Assembly: GCA_000004695.1 (NCBI GenBank) | Contig: CM000153.2 | Coordinates: forward strand, 3,872,001 to 3,936,000 | DNA length: 64,000 nt | From: Dictyostelium discoideum | Taxonomy: Eukaryota | Reading direction: 5' to 3' | In this document: positions 24,573-31,941 of the stretch, piece after piece | Layout of the letters: every line of letters starts with the position of its first letter | How positions within the stretch are numbered: position 1 is the stretch's first letter | Position numbers and translations under genes: made by a program | Notes under the pieces: model-generated | The model's input: only the letters and a program-made list of their open reading frames with translations | Database searches by the model: none | What the model was told of the DNA's origin: nothing

Positions 24573-27326
24573 ATGTTACAAAGTTTAAAAAATGTTTTTT
24601 TTTCAGACACCACAACAACTACAACACCAACAACACCAACAACACCAACAACACCAACAACAACACCAACAACAACAACAACACCAACAACAACACCAAC
24701 AACAACAACAACATCAACAACACCAATATCAAATCTATCTATTAAAAGAGACATTGGCAATATAAATGATTATAAGAATGCAAACTATTTTAATTATTAC
24801 AGAATATTGGAGAATAAATATAACTACCTTAGATACAATACTGGTTTAAAAAATATATCAAACAATGAAACATTCAAATTAATTGATTTTACAATTGATT
24901 CAGAAATGAATAATACTTGCATAACATCAAATTGGAATCAAAAGTATTCAAATAATTCAAGTACACCAGTTGAAGGTGTTTATAAAATTCCATTAGCACC
25001 ATATAGTGTAGTTTCAGGATTCACAGTAGAATATCAAGATAAAGTTTTCATTGGTAAAATTAAATCAAAAGAAAAAGCACAAAATCAATACTCTGATTCA
25101 ATCGCAAGTGGTGGCCAAGCATTCCTCGCAGAGAAAACTCAAGATGGTCAATTCTCATTTAGAATCGGTAATTTACCACCAAATGAAAATGTTACAATTC
25201 ATTTAACAATTATTTCAGAAGTTTGTCCTCATTTATCAAGTTTACAAAATTGCTTCCATCGTTTCTTATTCCCAAATTATTCATTTAATTTCCAATTCAA
25301 TTTAAATATTAAATTAACATTACCAATTAAAACTATTGAATTATTATATTATCCAAATAAAGATATTAAATTCAAAGAAAACTCTAATAATAAAGAAGCA
25401 ACTCTTACATTCTCTTCAAATAATGGTATTGACGATGATATTGTTTGCATTGTTGAACCAGAGAATGATATTGAAAGACCACAATCAATTATTGAACATT
25501 CAAAATTAAATAATACATATGCAGTCAGTGTCAACTTTACACCATCATTCAGTCATTTAACATCGGATGATGTAAATCAAAAAAGTGAATTTATATTCCT
25601 CATCGATTGTTCAGGAAGTATGAGTGGTGAACCAATTAAAAAAGCAAAAAGAGCTTTAGAAATTATTATTAGAAGTTTAAATGAAAATTGTAAGTTTAAT
25701 ATTTATTGTTTCGGTAGTAGATTTACAAAAGCATTCGACAATTCAAAAATGTACAATGATGAAACATTAAAAGAAATTTCAGGATATGTTGAAAAAATTG
25801 ATGCAGACTTAGGAGGTACAGAATTATTACCACCAATCCGTGATATCCTTTCCACTGAATCAGATTTCGAATATCCAAGACAATTATTCATTCTTACAGA
25901 TGGTGAAGTCAGTGAGAGAGATAGTTTAATAAATTATGTAGCAACAGAATCAAATAACACTAGAATCTTTACATATGGTATTGGAAATAGTGTAGATACA
26001 GAATTAGTAATTGGTTTATCAAAAGCATGTAAAGGCTATTATGAAATGATTAAAGATAACTCAAATTTCGAAGAACAAGTAATGAAATTAGTTTCAATTG
26101 CATTCGAACCAACACTTTCAAATATTAAAGTAGATTGGGGTACAGAATTACAAATTGAACAAGGTCCAACCAAAATTCGTCCACTTTATTCAGGTGAGAC
26201 TTTAATTGTTTATGCATTATTAAAAGATAATAAAATTCCTCAATCAACAGTACAAGTTTCATTAATTGGAGATGGACCAACTGGTTCAAAATTAGAATTC
26301 CCAATTACATTAGATTTCTCAAAAACAATTGATTATGAAAATAATTCAGTTCATACATTAGCAGCATTTAACATTATAAAAGATTTAGAAGAAGTTGAAA
26401 GAAAAGGAAACCATTCAAACAATAGAGATAGAATAGAAGAACTAGGTAAAAACTATGGATTAATATCAAAGTATACTTCATATATTGTCACTGCAGCTTC
26501 AGAACAAGTAACTGAAGAAACAATGAAAACTTTAAATATTATTCAAATACCAACAACAACAACAACATCACACACAAACTTTGAAACAGAAGAAGATTCC
26601 GATGATCTTTTCTCATCTGAAAATAGAAACCAAACACTTGCAAATATTTCCAATGATATGGAAAAAATTAAAGATATTTTTGATGATATTTCCAGGTTAA
26701 TATCAGAACAAAGTTGTATGCTAAATGAAATAGGGGATGCAAACATTGAAGCAAGTACCTTAGGTATAAATTCAATTCCTCAAAAATCAAACATCTTTTC
26801 AAAAATTACATCATTCTTTTCATCACCATCTGAAGTTTCGACAAGTAAATCCAATTTTGATAGTGATATTGGATCAGAAGAAAGAAGAAATAATAATAAT
26901 AATAATAATAATAATAATATTAATATTAATAATAATAATAATAATAATAATAATAATAATAATAATAATAATAATAATAATAATAATAATAATAATAATA
27001 ATAATAATAATAATAATAATAATAATAGTGATAATAGTGACAGTTTATTAAAATTAATTAGACTTCAAAAAGCAAATGGATCATGGAGTTCACCATTTAG
27101 TGAATTCAAAATTGATTTATCAAAGAAACCATCAAACATTGATAACGATGATATTTGGATCACTTTAATAGTAATCAACAAGATTCTTAATGATTATCCA
27201 ACTCAACAATCTCAATATGACCTTGTAATTCAAAAGGCTTCAAAATGGGTAAAACAACAATTGACAAGATTAAACATTCCAAATCAATATGGCTCATTAT
27301 TAGCTACTTCAAAATTATATATTTAA
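24573..27326 (+). CDS. VIT (vault inter-alpha-trypsin) + von Willebrand factor type A domain protein, tandem copy 1 (917 aa) with poly-Thr/Pro N-terminus and C-terminal poly-Asn tract
   Basis: ATG at 24573 (MLQSLKNVFF; the track start at 24552 is a non-ATG). VIT-like region KIPLAPYSVVSGFTVEYQDKVFIGKIKSKEKAQNQY..FSFRIGNLPPNENVTIHLTI. vWA MIDAS-type start EFIFLIDCSGSMSGEPIKKAKRAL...CFGSRF. Ends TAA at 27324-27326. Confidence 0.8.
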   Translation: MLQSLKNVFFSDTTTTTTPTTPTTPTTPTTTPTTTTTPTTTPTTTTTSTTPISNLSIKRDIGNINDYKNANYFNYYRILENKYNYLRYNTGLKNISNNETFKLIDFTIDSEMNNTCITSNWNQKYSNNSSTPVEGVYKIPLAPYSVVSGFTVEYQDKVFIGKIKSKEKAQNQYSDSIASGGQAFLAEKTQDGQFSFRIGNLPPNENVTIHLTIISEVCPHLSSLQNCFHRFLFPNYSFNFQFNLNIKLTLPIKTIELLYYPNKDIKFKENSNNKEATLTFSSNNGIDDDIVCIVEPENDIERPQSIIEHSKLNNTYAVSVNFTPSFSHLTSDDVNQKSEFIFLIDCSGSMSGEPIKKAKRALEIIIRSLNENCKFNIYCFGSRFTKAFDNSKMYNDETLKEISGYVEKIDADLGGTELLPPIRDILSTESDFEYPRQLFILTDGEVSERDSLINYVATESNNTRIFTYGIGNSVDTELVIGLSKACKGYYEMIKDNSNFEEQVMKLVSIAFEPTLSNIKVDWGTELQIEQGPTKIRPLYSGETLIVYALLKDNKIPQSTVQVSLIGDGPTGSKLEFPITLDFSKTIDYENNSVHTLAAFNIIKDLEEVERKGNHSNNRDRIEELGKNYGLISKYTSYIVTAASEQVTEETMKTLNIIQIPTTTTTSHTNFETEEDSDDLFSSENRNQTLANISNDMEKIKDIFDDISRLISEQSCMLNEIGDANIEASTLGINSIPQKSNIFSKITSFFSSPSEVSTSKSNFDSDIGSEERRNNNNNNNNNNININNNNNNNNNNNNNNNNNNNNNNNNNNNNNNNNNSDNSDSLLKLIRLQKANGSWSSPFSEFKIDLSKKPSNIDNDDIWITLIVINKILNDYPTQQSQYDLVIQKASKWVKQQLTRLNIPNQYGSLLATSKLYI

Positions 27327-31941: not shown

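What the first reader, a model, noticed from the sequence alone, without database searches (positions are those of the whole stretch)
24573..31941. Tandem triplication of a VIT+vWA gene with a decayed middle copy and divergent C-termini
Three head-to-tail copies include about 400 bp of conserved 5' flank. Copies 1 and 3 are about 95% identical through the VIT and vWA domains but carry different C-terminal inserts (a poly-Asn tract versus a Cys-containing segment). Copy 2 retains the promoter and both ends but has lost ~1.8 kb internally and is frameshifted at both ends. The array therefore shows recent duplication, possible gene conversion of the cores and ongoing pseudogenisation, in a family whose members are secreted or adhesion-type proteins in other organisms.
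Basis: seen in the sequence. Interest (0 to 1): 0.6.

Follow-up and report, generated by a model that had tools for sequence, protein, structure and literature searches.

The report
Dictyostelium VIT-vWA gene pair plus chimeric remnant
This is a known locus on Dictyostelium discoideum chromosome 4: two intact, intracellular VWA5A-like genes that keep each other's cores nearly identical by gene conversion, with a dead hybrid fragment of the two lying between them. It is a clean but ordinary case of tandem gene-family evolution.

Summary
The window is D. discoideum AX4. Copy 3 is exactly DDB_G0285981, and the first ORF of copy 2 is the annotated 'hypothetical protein' DDB_G0285977.

Copies 1 and 3 are intact, intron-less VIT+vWA genes, 96-98% identical through the core. 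Copy 2 lacks 1,637 bp (not about 1.8 kb) and carries three frame-breaking lesions. An independent assembly reproduces it base for base.

Corrections:
- Only copies 2 and 3 share the roughly 450-bp 5' flank.
- The 'different C-terminal inserts' are one homologous, fast-evolving linker (about 59% identity).
- The closest relatives are intracellular (VWA5A/PARP4 type), not secreted.

New findings from six genomes:
- The A/B gene pair is old. The linkers group by position, while the core and C-terminal tail group by genome (bootstrap 86-100). Core dS between the AX4 paralogues is 0.07, against 0.13-0.15 between orthologues. This is concerted evolution.
- Copy 2 is a chimera with a copy-3-type 5' end and a copy-1-type 3' end. 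It arose by unequal recombination between the two genes and not as a plain third copy.
- Whether it was born truncated or lost its core later is unresolved.

Copy number varies across the clade (2, 3, or 2 plus fragments). This is textbook birth-and-death plus gene conversion, of low interest.

The parts
24573..27326 (+). Copy 1 (A-type gene), intact single-exon VIT+vWA gene of 917 aa. By position it is probably DDB_G0285975; that identifier is from my own memory and was not confirmed.
   Evidence: Uninterrupted ORF. Pfam VIT (E 6e-30) and VWA_3 (E 6e-28). An identical 917-aa gene call exists in assembly L001. MIDAS residues DCSGS, GGTEL and LTDGE are intact.
24971..26504 (+). Homogenised core tract (VIT, vWA and downstream conserved region), shown in copy-1 coordinates
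   Evidence: 31 consecutive quartet sites group by genome, with none grouping by position. Core identity between copies 1 and 3 is 97.9%, against 95.6-96.3% to the L004 orthologues. dS is 0.070 against 0.13-0.146, and omega is 0.13. The longest identical tract is 319 nt, P=0.0011.
26574..27041 (+). A-type linker, fast-evolving, with a poly-Asn tract (AAT run at about 26889-27026). It escapes conversion.
   Evidence: 74 quartet sites group by position. It is 91.2% identical to L004_A but 58.8% to copy 3. Omega is 0.6-2.2. Asn run length ranges from 0 to 63 among orthologues.
27039..27326 (+). Conserved C-terminal domain (CTD) of copy 1, with the LQKANGSW motif
   Evidence: Clusters by genome with omega 0.12-0.24. 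The equivalent tail of copy 3 aligns to the C-terminus (aa 806-889) of Nematostella VWA5A, E 3e-8.
27327..27795 (+). Spacer S1 (3' flank of copy 1 and 5' flank of copy 2)
   Evidence: 82.0% identical to S2 over 450 aligned nt. The last roughly 55 nt before the ATG are almost identical to S2.
27796..28145 (+). Copy 2, 5' fragment (B-type). The original ATG at 27796 is out of frame because of a T10 run instead of T9. The in-frame ATG at 27815 opens the 119-aa ORF annotated as DDB_G0285977.
   Evidence: 95.7% identical to copy 3 against 92.2% to copy 1, with 15 against 6 informative sites. The clade c2+c3+L004_B has bootstrap 87. The 119-aa ORF is an exact match to DDB_G0285977 / Q54MG3.
28146..28845 (+). 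Copy 2, 3' fragment (A-type linker, poly-Asn and CTD). The junction at 28145/28146 is missing 1,637 nt. An 11-nt deletion lies between 28676 and 28677.
   Evidence: The linker piece is 85.7% identical to copy 1 against 55.6% to copy 3. The clade c1+c2+L004_A has bootstrap 82. The junction has only AAA microhomology. The 11-nt deletion is visible in the alignment. Linker omega is 0.92.
28846..29445 (+). Spacer S2 (5' flank of copy 3). It contains a unique 126-132-bp insert at 28886-29017.
   Evidence: 89.2% identical to the single A-B spacer of isolate L004. The insert is absent from S1 and from the L004 spacer. It has no other copy in the window or the fetched loci apart from its poly-T part.
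29446..31941 (+). Copy 3 (B-type gene) = DDB_G0285981, intact single-exon VIT+vWA gene of 831 aa
   Evidence: Exact match to XP_637953.1 / Q54MG1. Pfam VIT and VWA_3.
31391..31623 (+). B-type linker of copy 3 (Cys-containing, no poly-Asn)
   Evidence: 88.8-90.8% identical to the L004_B linker. Groups with L002_B, L003_B and L005_B.

Best explanation
The locus is an old tandem pair of paralogous, intron-less genes for intracellular VWA5A-like proteins. Each has a VIT domain, a MIDAS-bearing vWA domain, a variable linker and a conserved C-terminal domain. The pair is A-type (copy 1) and B-type (copy 3, DDB_G0285981).

Shown. The pair predates the radiation of the D. discoideum / D. citrinum group, because the linkers are orthologous by position across genomes. 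The VIT-vWA core and the C-terminal domain are repeatedly homogenised within each genome by interlocus gene conversion while under purifying selection (omega about 0.13-0.16). The linker and the 5' flanks escape homogenisation. Copy 2 is a B-5'/A-3' chimera. It lacks the whole core, is frame-broken three times and has no recognisable domain.

Inferred. Copy 2 was created by unequal recombination between the B and A genes of a two-gene array, which also duplicated the spacer. This could have been a homologous crossover in the core giving a full-length hybrid that later lost 1.6 kb (about 55%). It could instead have been a single microhomology-mediated tandem duplication of the roughly 1.5-kb inter-core segment, giving a gene born truncated (about 45%). 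The event probably predates the split between AX4 and isolate L004, which then lost the unit. Copy 2's ends probably still receive conversion from its neighbours, because their synonymous divergence is only about a third of that in its linker and spacers. Across the clade the array gains and loses units by the same recombination, a birth-and-death process.
For: Identity of the locus:
- Exact protein matches to DDB_G0285981 and DDB_G0285977 of D. discoideum AX4.

Structure is real:
- 100% identity of the whole array in an independent assembly.

Concerted evolution:
- In all six genomes the core (aa 138-658) clusters by genome, bootstrap 86-100.
- The linker clusters by position. The A clade AX4_c1+L004_A+L002_A has bootstrap 96, and the B clade AX4_c3+L004_B+L002_B has 98.
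- Core dS between copies 1 and 3 is 0.070, against 0.146 and 0.130 for the orthologue pairs. Linker dS between copies 1 and 3 is 0.85.
- Quartet site patterns fall into uninterrupted blocks: 8 by position, 31 by genome, 74 by position (with one odd site), 3 by genome.
- Differences between copies 1 and 3 are clustered, P=0.0011.

Chimera:
- The 5' piece is 95.7% identical to copy 3 against 92.2% to copy 1.
- The linker piece is 85.7% identical to copy 1 against 55.6% to copy 3.

Age of the remnant:
- S2 to L004 spacer 89.2%, S1 to S2 82.0%. Informative sites are 46 (S2=L004), 24 (S1=L004) and 9 (S1=S2).
- Shared-derived linker sites are (c1,L004_A) 5 against (c2,c1) 0.

Conversion into the remnant:
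- dS is 0.065 for the 5' piece and 0.057-0.077 for the tail, against 0.17 for its linker.
- The divergence contrasts give Fisher P of 1e-4 to 3e-8.

Birth and death across the clade:
- 2 copies in L002.
- 2 copies plus a 218-bp core scrap in L004.
- 3 intact copies in L003.
- 2 copies plus a shredded third in L005.
- 2 copies in L006.

Protein family:
- Pfam VIT + VWA.
- MIDAS residues invariant in 13 of 13 copies, and no hydrophobic signal or TM segment.
- VWA5A is the best non-dictyostelid relative. PARP4 and ITIH1/4 are the best PDB hits.
- The CTD aligns to the VWA5A C-terminus.
- The family is described as seven intracellular genes, some of which bind the F-box protein FbxwD (PMC10539598).
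Against: - The dating signals are weak and partly conflict. Copy 2's 5' piece looks younger than the AX4/L004 split, with (c2,c3) 4 sites against (c3,L004_B) 1-3. I attribute this to later conversion, but the counts are small.
- Spacer alignments in 80% A+T DNA are error-prone, so the spacer site counts are soft.
- The evidence for conversion into the remnant rests on 3-4 synonymous differences per segment.
- One-step and two-step origins cannot be distinguished from the sequence. The junction has only 3 nt of microhomology, which means nothing in this base composition.
- No expression data were available, so 'non-functional' is inferred from lesions and domain loss only.
- An annotation pipeline did call a 288-aa spliced product on copy 2.
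- Which of Vwa2-7 these genes are, and whether they bind FbxwD, was not established.
Confidence: 0.8

Rival explanations
1. One reading: one gene was recently triplicated as whole units. The middle copy was a plain full-length copy that then lost about 1.8 kb and decayed. Copies 1 and 3 acquired different C-terminal inserts.
For: Three units with shared ends and a shared inter-copy spacer. High core identity between copies 1 and 3.
Against: Linkers are orthologous by position across at least four genomes and are about 59% identical between copies 1 and 3 (dS 0.85). The A/B split is therefore old. Copy 2 is a chimera of B-type 5' and A-type 3' sequence. Copy 1 does not share the 5' flank. A diverged D. 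discoideum isolate and D. cf. discoideum have only A and B.
Confidence: 0.05
2. Copy 2 is a functional gene. It would encode either the 119-aa product annotated as DDB_G0285977, or a 288-aa spliced protein (N-terminus + linker + CTD) as called in assembly GCA_054883475.1. Such a product might act as a modulator of its full-length paralogues.
For: An ATG at 27815 keeps the N-terminal frame open for 119 codons, and this ORF is annotated. A 288-aa model exists, and three GT-AG intron combinations can produce it. The proximal roughly 55 nt of 5' flank are nearly identical to those of copy 3. Over-expressed single domains of the paralogue Vwa1 arrest development in a Vwa1-dependent way (PMC10539598).
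Against: The intact paralogues have no introns. The required 'introns' (for example 28152-28242 and 28618-28690) are ordinary exon sequence in those paralogues. Only about 33 residues of the VIT domain remain, and Pfam finds no domain. The linker piece evolves neutrally (omega 0.92). The original start codon is out of frame. A VIT remnant of Vwa1 was reported as undetectable and predicted not to fold (PMC10539598).
Confidence: 0.05
3. The high within-genome identity of the cores reflects independent recent duplications in each species, not gene conversion between old paralogues.
For: Paralogues cluster by genome in the core and tail in all six genomes. Copy number varies across the clade.
Against: The same genes carry linkers that cluster by position across genomes, with bootstrap 96-98. 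Upstream flanks of the A genes are orthologous. Within single genes the signal switches cleanly between blocks, which independent whole-gene duplication cannot produce.
Confidence: 0.03
4. The truncated middle copy is an assembly artefact, a collapse or mis-join within a repeat.
For: Near-identical tandem repeats are a classic source of collapse. The reference dates from Sanger-era assembly (my own background knowledge).
Against: An independent chromosome-scale assembly has the identical structure and sequence, including the junction, the frame-shifts and the unique insert. It differs from the window only at flanking homopolymers. Copy 2 also has its own substitutions, with 85-96% identity to either neighbour, so it is not a mis-join of their reads.
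Confidence: 0.01

Closest known systems
Dictyostelium Vwa family (Vwa1-Vwa7), intracellular VIT-vWFA proteins related to human VWA5A/BCSC-1 (Boland et al. 2023, PMC10539598)
   Same: Same architecture: VIT, vWA with a MIDAS motif, a variable region and a C-terminal domain. No signal peptide. Same organism. The paper counts seven such genes in D. discoideum, and the two intact genes here are evidently among them.
   Different: The studied protein Vwa1 is a different and larger paralogue (Mr about 112,000). I could not establish which Vwa numbers these two genes carry, nor whether they bind FbxwD. The paper does not discuss this tandem array, its remnant or gene conversion. 'Pseudogene' has 0 occurrences, the passages containing 'tandem' that were displayed concern tag constructs, and the gene IDs are absent.
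Concerted evolution of tandem paralogues by interlocus gene conversion with a non-converted divergent segment. Classic examples from textbook knowledge are the primate gamma-globin pair and opsin genes. General treatments include PMC4132178 and PMC1855330, which I listed but did not read.
   Same: Paralogues are more similar within a genome than orthologues are between genomes. Tract boundaries are sharp. Conversion stops where sequence identity collapses. Unequal crossover produces copy-number variants and hybrid genes.
   Different: Nothing in kind. This is another instance, in a very A+T-rich amoebozoan genome, with a disordered poly-Asn-prone linker as the non-converted segment.
Unprocessed (duplicated) chimeric pseudogenes made by unequal crossover, such as hybrid or fusion genes in human tandem families (textbook knowledge)
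   Same: The 5' end comes from one paralogue and the 3' end from the other. Native flanks are retained. Frame-shifts are present. There are no retroposition marks.
   Different: Here the hybrid lacks the entire homologous core in which a homologous crossover would have occurred. It therefore either suffered a second event or arose by a non-homologous junction.
ITIH heavy chains and PARP4 (solved VIT-vWA structures)
   Same: Sequence-detectable homology over the VIT-vWA region. PARP4 gives E 9e-33, and ITIH1 and ITIH4 give about 1e-13.
   Different: ITIH proteins are secreted and are covalently linked to glycosaminoglycans. PARP4 carries BRCT and PARP domains. Neither feature is present here.

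Membership tests
Intracellular VWA5A-like VIT-vWFA proteins (Dictyostelium Vwa family) | N-terminal VIT domain followed by a vWA domain | tested here: met
   Pfam VIT E 6e-30 and 1e-28, VWA_3 E 6e-28 and 1e-27, in copies 1 and 3. Copy 2 ORFs have none.
Intracellular VWA5A-like VIT-vWFA proteins (Dictyostelium Vwa family) | Complete MIDAS metal-site residues (DxSxS, T, D) in the vWA domain | tested here: met
   DCSGS, GGTEL and LTDGE are invariant in all 13 intact copies from six genomes.
Intracellular VWA5A-like VIT-vWFA proteins (Dictyostelium Vwa family) | No signal peptide or transmembrane segment (cytoplasmic location) | tested here: met
   Maximum Kyte-Doolittle 19-residue mean is 0.9-1.1, and the N-terminus MLQSLKNVFFSDTTTT has no hydrophobic core. 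This is a crude hydropathy test only. Localisation was not tested experimentally.
Intracellular VWA5A-like VIT-vWFA proteins (Dictyostelium Vwa family) | VWA5A-type C-terminal domain at the very C-terminus | tested here: met
   The tail aligns to aa 806-889 of the 908-aa Nematostella VWA5A, E 3e-8, sharing the LQKAxGSW motif. It is conserved with omega about 0.15.
Intracellular VWA5A-like VIT-vWFA proteins (Dictyostelium Vwa family) | Physical association with the F-box protein FbxwD / SCF complexes | not testable with these tools
   Reported for Vwa1 and Vwa2, and less firmly for Vwa3 and Vwa6 (PMC10539598). The mapping of these names to the genes here was not found.
   No hydrophobic N-terminal segment. 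ITIH1 and ITIH4 are more distant hits than PARP4, and VWA5A is the best non-dictyostelid match.
Tandem paralogues under concerted evolution (interlocus gene conversion) | Paralogues within a genome are more similar than orthologues between genomes, in genes shown by other segments to have duplicated before speciation | tested here: met
   Core clusters by genome (bootstrap 86-100) and linker by position (96-98). dS is 0.07 against 0.13-0.15. Site patterns are block-wise.
Tandem paralogues under concerted evolution (interlocus gene conversion) | Non-random clustering of differences (tracts) | tested here: met
   Longest identical tract is 319 nt, with permutation P=0.0011. There are 31 consecutive by-genome sites.
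Unprocessed chimeric pseudogene | Disabling lesions relative to intact paralogues and loss of domains | tested here: met
   A +1 T in the T-run, a 1,637-nt gap (3n+2) and an 11-nt deletion. No Pfam domain.
Unprocessed chimeric pseudogene | Neutral evolution of the remnant | tested here: inconclusive
   Linker piece omega is 0.92, but the linker is near-neutral in intact copies too. The 5' and tail pieces give omega 0.3-0.6 from only 9-11 substitutions and are probably overwritten by conversion.
Unprocessed chimeric pseudogene | Absence of a stable transcript or protein | not testable with these tools
   No expression data are available here. The literature search for the gene IDs found nothing.

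The most novel reading that the evidence does not exclude
The chimeric remnant is not dead. Driven by a copy-3-like proximal promoter, it would make a small protein consisting of the N-terminal segment with or without the linker and CTD (the 119-aa or 288-aa products). This protein would modulate full-length Vwa paralogues in trans. Over-expressed single domains of Vwa1 arrest development in a Vwa1-dependent way, so this would be a naturally evolved dominant-negative 'microprotein'. Conversion from its neighbours would keep its ends in shape.
Probability: 0.05. Interest if true: 0.5.

Novelty: new member of a known kind. Interest (0 to 1): 0.2.

Why it matters
The practical value is mostly in annotation.
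- DDB_G0285977 ('hypothetical protein') and the 288-aa spliced model in a newer assembly are best read as pieces of one chimeric pseudogene.
- The two flanking genes are an old A/B pair, not recent duplicates. Anyone knocking out or tagging Vwa paralogues should know this, because their cores are about 98% identical and recombine.

As biology, it is a tidy example of concerted evolution with sharp tract borders, in a genome where such cases are little documented. It suggests that the variable linker, not the VIT-vWA core, is what distinguishes the two genes. It does not open a long-standing question.

Tried and rejected
- An unmasked blastn of window segments against the loci was swamped by poly-A/T and AAT repeats. 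I repeated it with dust masking and length/identity filters.
- I tried to recover the AX4 reference gene models for copy 1 and for the 3' half of copy 2. Exact look-ups of copy 1 (917 aa) and of three candidate 3' ORFs found nothing. The look-up of contigs encoding the 119-aa product also failed. The identifiers DDB_G0285975 and DDB_G0285979 for those parts therefore remain my unverified recollection.
- A literature search for the four gene IDs gave zero papers. The one relevant paper's supplement does not list them or Vwa4-7.
- I looked for other copies of the 126-132-bp insert after copy 2. Only its poly-T part matches elsewhere, and there is no Dictyostelium repeat library here to test a transposon origin.
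- I considered a tRNA-targeted retroelement near the array. The only tRNA is Asp at 47821-47893, far from the array. The GC-rich block at 50-52 kb is simply an ABC-F ATPase gene.
- I considered positive selection on the linker. Omega reaches 2.2 for one pair, but from 25 non-synonymous against 3 synonymous changes. I treat this as relaxed constraint, not demonstrated selection.
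Full report
**What the window is.** The base composition is about 22% G+C, with AAT and CAA codon runs and long poly-A/T intergenic tracts, which pointed to Dictyostelium. Exact protein look-ups settled it. [quoted passage not shown] The 119-aa ORF at 27815-28171 is identical to 'hypothetical protein DDB_G0285977'. The finding therefore sits in an annotated model-organism locus, and eukaryotic gene rules apply.

**Checking the observation.** Self-blastn and a three-unit MAFFT alignment confirm three head-to-tail units.
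- Copy 1 (24573-27326, 917 aa) and copy 3 (29446-31941, 831 aa) are uninterrupted ORFs with Pfam VIT and VWA_3/VWA domains.
- They are 96.2% identical over 1,910 nt, and 93.8% identical over the last 357 nt.
- Copy 2 retains 27833-28147 (90.8% to copy 1) and 28142-28891 (89.1% to copy 1). It lacks the equivalent of copy-1 positions 24987-26623, which is 1,637 nt and not about 1.8 kb.
- Copy 2 carries three frame-breaking lesions. A T10 run instead of T9 just after the original ATG at 27796 shifts the frame. The junction itself removes 3n+2 nucleotides. An 11-nt deletion lies between 28676 and 28677.
- None of copy 2's ORFs has a detectable domain.

Two details of the observation need correcting.
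- The roughly 450-bp conserved flank is shared only by copies 2 and 3 (82% identity). Copy 1's upstream region is unrelated.
- The 'different C-terminal inserts' are one homologous linker that has diverged to about 59% nt identity. Copy 1 additionally has Asn runs of 10 and 33 residues.

**Not an artefact.** A second chromosome-scale D. discoideum assembly (GCA_054883475.1, locus L001) differs from the window at flanking homopolymers (99.1-99.2% identity), so it is an independent sequence. It is nonetheless 100% identical across all three copies, both spacers and the insert after copy 2. This removes the assembly-collapse objection.

**Comparative data.** A protein search found close relatives with adjacent locus tags in five other genomes of the D. 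discoideum group, and I fetched those loci. Mapping by tblastn and blastn gave the following.
- A diverged D. discoideum isolate (L004) has two intact genes plus a 218-bp core scrap downstream.
- D. cf. discoideum (L002) has two genes.
- One D. citrinum genome (L003) has three intact genes.
- The other D. citrinum genome (L005) has two intact genes plus a shredded third at the position of L003's third gene.
- D. dimigraforme (L006) has two genes.

All 13 intact copies are single exons. Copy number therefore varies, and decayed copies recur across the clade.

**Old duplication, homogenised core.** I built per-segment NJ trees with bootstrap on a codon alignment.
- The core (aa 138-658) and the C-terminal tail cluster by genome in every genome (bootstrap 86-100).
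- The linker (aa 666-771) clusters by position. The A-type clade AX4_c1+L004_A+L002_A has bootstrap 96, and the D. citrinum first genes are its nearest relatives by identity. The B-type clade AX4_c3+L004_B+L002_B has bootstrap 98, and joins the D. citrinum second genes at bootstrap 62.
- Nei-Gojobori estimates give core dS of 0.070 between the AX4 paralogues, against 0.146 and 0.130 between AX4 and L004 orthologues. Linker dS between copies 1 and 3 is 0.85.
- Core omega is 0.13-0.16 in every comparison and tail omega is about 0.15-0.24. Linker omega is 0.6-2.2 on small counts, which I read as relaxed constraint.
- Differences between copies 1 and 3 are clustered, with a longest identical tract of 319 nt (P=0.0011).
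- For the quartet AX4_c1, AX4_c3, L004_A and L004_B, informative sites fall into uninterrupted blocks. There are 8 by position (24735-24857), 31 by genome (24971-26504), 74 by position plus one odd site (26574-27041), and 3 by genome (27100-27292).

This is the standard signature of interlocus gene conversion between old paralogues.

**What copy 2 is.** I placed its two pieces on these trees.
- The 5' piece is B-type. It is 95.7% identical to copy 3 against 92.2% to copy 1, with 15 against 6 informative sites, and the clade c2+c3+L004_B has bootstrap 87.
- The linker piece is A-type. It is 85.7% identical to copy 1 against 55.6% to copy 3, and the clade with copy 1 and L004_A has bootstrap 82.

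Copy 2 is therefore a B-5'/A-3' chimera with a duplicated spacer on either side. That is what unequal recombination between gene B and gene A of a two-gene array A-S-B produces. Two routes give the same sequence.
- A homologous crossover in the near-identical core would make a full-length hybrid that later lost the core.
- A single non-homologous tandem duplication of the roughly 1.5-kb segment from the start of A's linker to the end of B's 5' region (26624-28145 against 28146-29778) would make a gene born truncated.

The junction shows only AAA microhomology, which is uninformative at this base composition. I rate the two routes at about 55:45.

**Age of the remnant.**
- Spacer S2 is closer to the single A-B spacer of L004 (89.2%) than to S1 (82.0%). 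Informative sites are 46 (S2=L004), 24 (S1=L004) and 9 (S1=S2).
- With L002_A as outgroup, the linker has 5 sites uniting copy 1 with L004_A and none uniting copy 1 with copy 2.

Both results suggest the remnant arose before the AX4/L004 split and after the L002 split, and was then lost in L004. The 5' piece gives the opposite weak signal, with 4 sites uniting c2 and c3.

That fits another result. Synonymous divergence at copy 2's ends (0.065, and 0.057-0.077) is about a third of that in its linker (0.17) and spacers. The overall divergence contrasts are significant (Fisher P of 1e-4 to 3e-8). The likely reading is that the remnant's ends are still overwritten by conversion from its neighbours. 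All of these dating counts are small, so I hold the conclusions loosely.

**Is copy 2 expressed as something useful?** The other assembly's annotation calls a 288-aa spliced product on it. Brute-force reconstruction finds three GT-AG solutions, each needing two introns that total 164 nt, for example 28152-28242 plus 28618-28690. All of these 'introns' are cut from sequence that is exon in the intron-less intact paralogues. This looks like a gene predictor stepping around frame-shifts. Only about 33 residues of the VIT domain survive. A VIT remnant of the paralogue Vwa1 was reported as undetectable and predicted not to fold (PMC10539598). No transcript data could be examined here, so I leave 5% for a functional product.

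**What the proteins are.**
- The non-dictyostelid best hits are VWA5A.
- The best solved structures are PARP4 (E 9e-33) and ITIH1/ITIH4.
- The conserved tail aligns to the C-terminus of Nematostella VWA5A (E 3e-8).
- The MIDAS residues are invariant in all 13 copies, and there is no signal peptide or TM segment.
- Boland et al. 2023 (PMC10539598) describe seven such genes in D. discoideum, all predicted to be intracellular. Vwa1 and Vwa2 bind the F-box protein FbxwD in SCF complexes.

I could not map the two genes here onto the Vwa1-7 names.

**An unexplained detail.** The stretch missing from copy 2 (24987-26623) coincides almost exactly with the homogenised core tract (24971-26504). Put another way, the AX4 array is two cores separated by a tandem duplication of the whole inter-core segment. 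A rough post-hoc estimate puts the chance of both breakpoints landing this close at about 1-2%. I cannot show a mechanism. It may be coincidence, or the remnant may be a by-product of an aberrant repair event between the two cores.

**Verdict.** The phenomena involved are textbook: tandem paralogues, concerted evolution with a non-converted divergent segment, a hybrid pseudogene and copy-number turnover. The genes are already annotated, and the family has been described. What is new is locus-specific: the A/B orthology, the sharp conversion tracts, the chimeric nature of the remnant, and the mis-annotation of the remnant as protein-coding. Interest is low at 0.2.

Noticed in passing
window 28886-29017: A 126-132-bp, relatively G+C-rich insert lies immediately after copy 2. 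It is absent from the equivalent place after copy 1 and from the L004 spacer, and present identically in the second AX4-type assembly. Apart from its poly-T part it has no other copy in the window or the fetched loci. Its origin is unknown; it could be filler DNA or a scrap of a mobile element.
   Followed up: partly
window 24188-24390: Nested palindromes lie about 200-380 bp upstream of copy 1. One has 81-nt arms at 24229-24309 / 24310-24390 (73% complementary). Another has 31-nt arms at 24188-24218 / 24220-24250 (97%). A perfect core at about 24283-24336 is centred on GGATATCC. Isolate L004 lacks roughly 24221-24311 of this flank.
   Followed up: partly
copy-1 coordinates 24971-26504 versus 24987-26623: The segment missing from copy 2 coincides almost exactly with the gene-conversion tract shared by copies 1 and 3. 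The chance of this is roughly 1-2% post hoc. No mechanism was established.
   Followed up: partly
L004:12713-12930; L005:16277-16666; L003:16640-18997: A third gene position lies downstream of gene B. It is intact in one D. citrinum genome (785 aa, with its own linker type). It is shredded to three short fragments in the other D. citrinum genome. It is reduced to a 218-bp core scrap in a D. discoideum isolate, and nothing is detectable there in AX4.
   Followed up: partly
window 26889-27026 and 28405-28530; orthologues in L003-L005: The poly-Asn (AAT) tract in the linker varies from 0 to 63 residues among orthologues and paralogues. It is longer in the dead copy 2 than in copy 1.
   Followed up: partly
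window 22503-23906 (+): The upstream neighbour is a 467-aa CCCH zinc-finger protein with its own long poly-Asn tract. It is syntenic in all six genomes.
   Followed up: partly
window 50084-52210 (-) and 47821-47893 (-): The only G+C-rich block in the window (38%) is an ABC-F type ATPase gene (two ABC_tran domains plus ABC_tran_Xtn). A single tRNA-Asp(GTC) lies about 2 kb away.
   Followed up: partly
window 32439-32951: A strongly G-over-C-skewed stretch of 9-12-nt periodic repeats lies downstream of copy 3. It overlaps a 210-aa minus-strand gene call in the other assembly. It was not examined.
   Followed up: no
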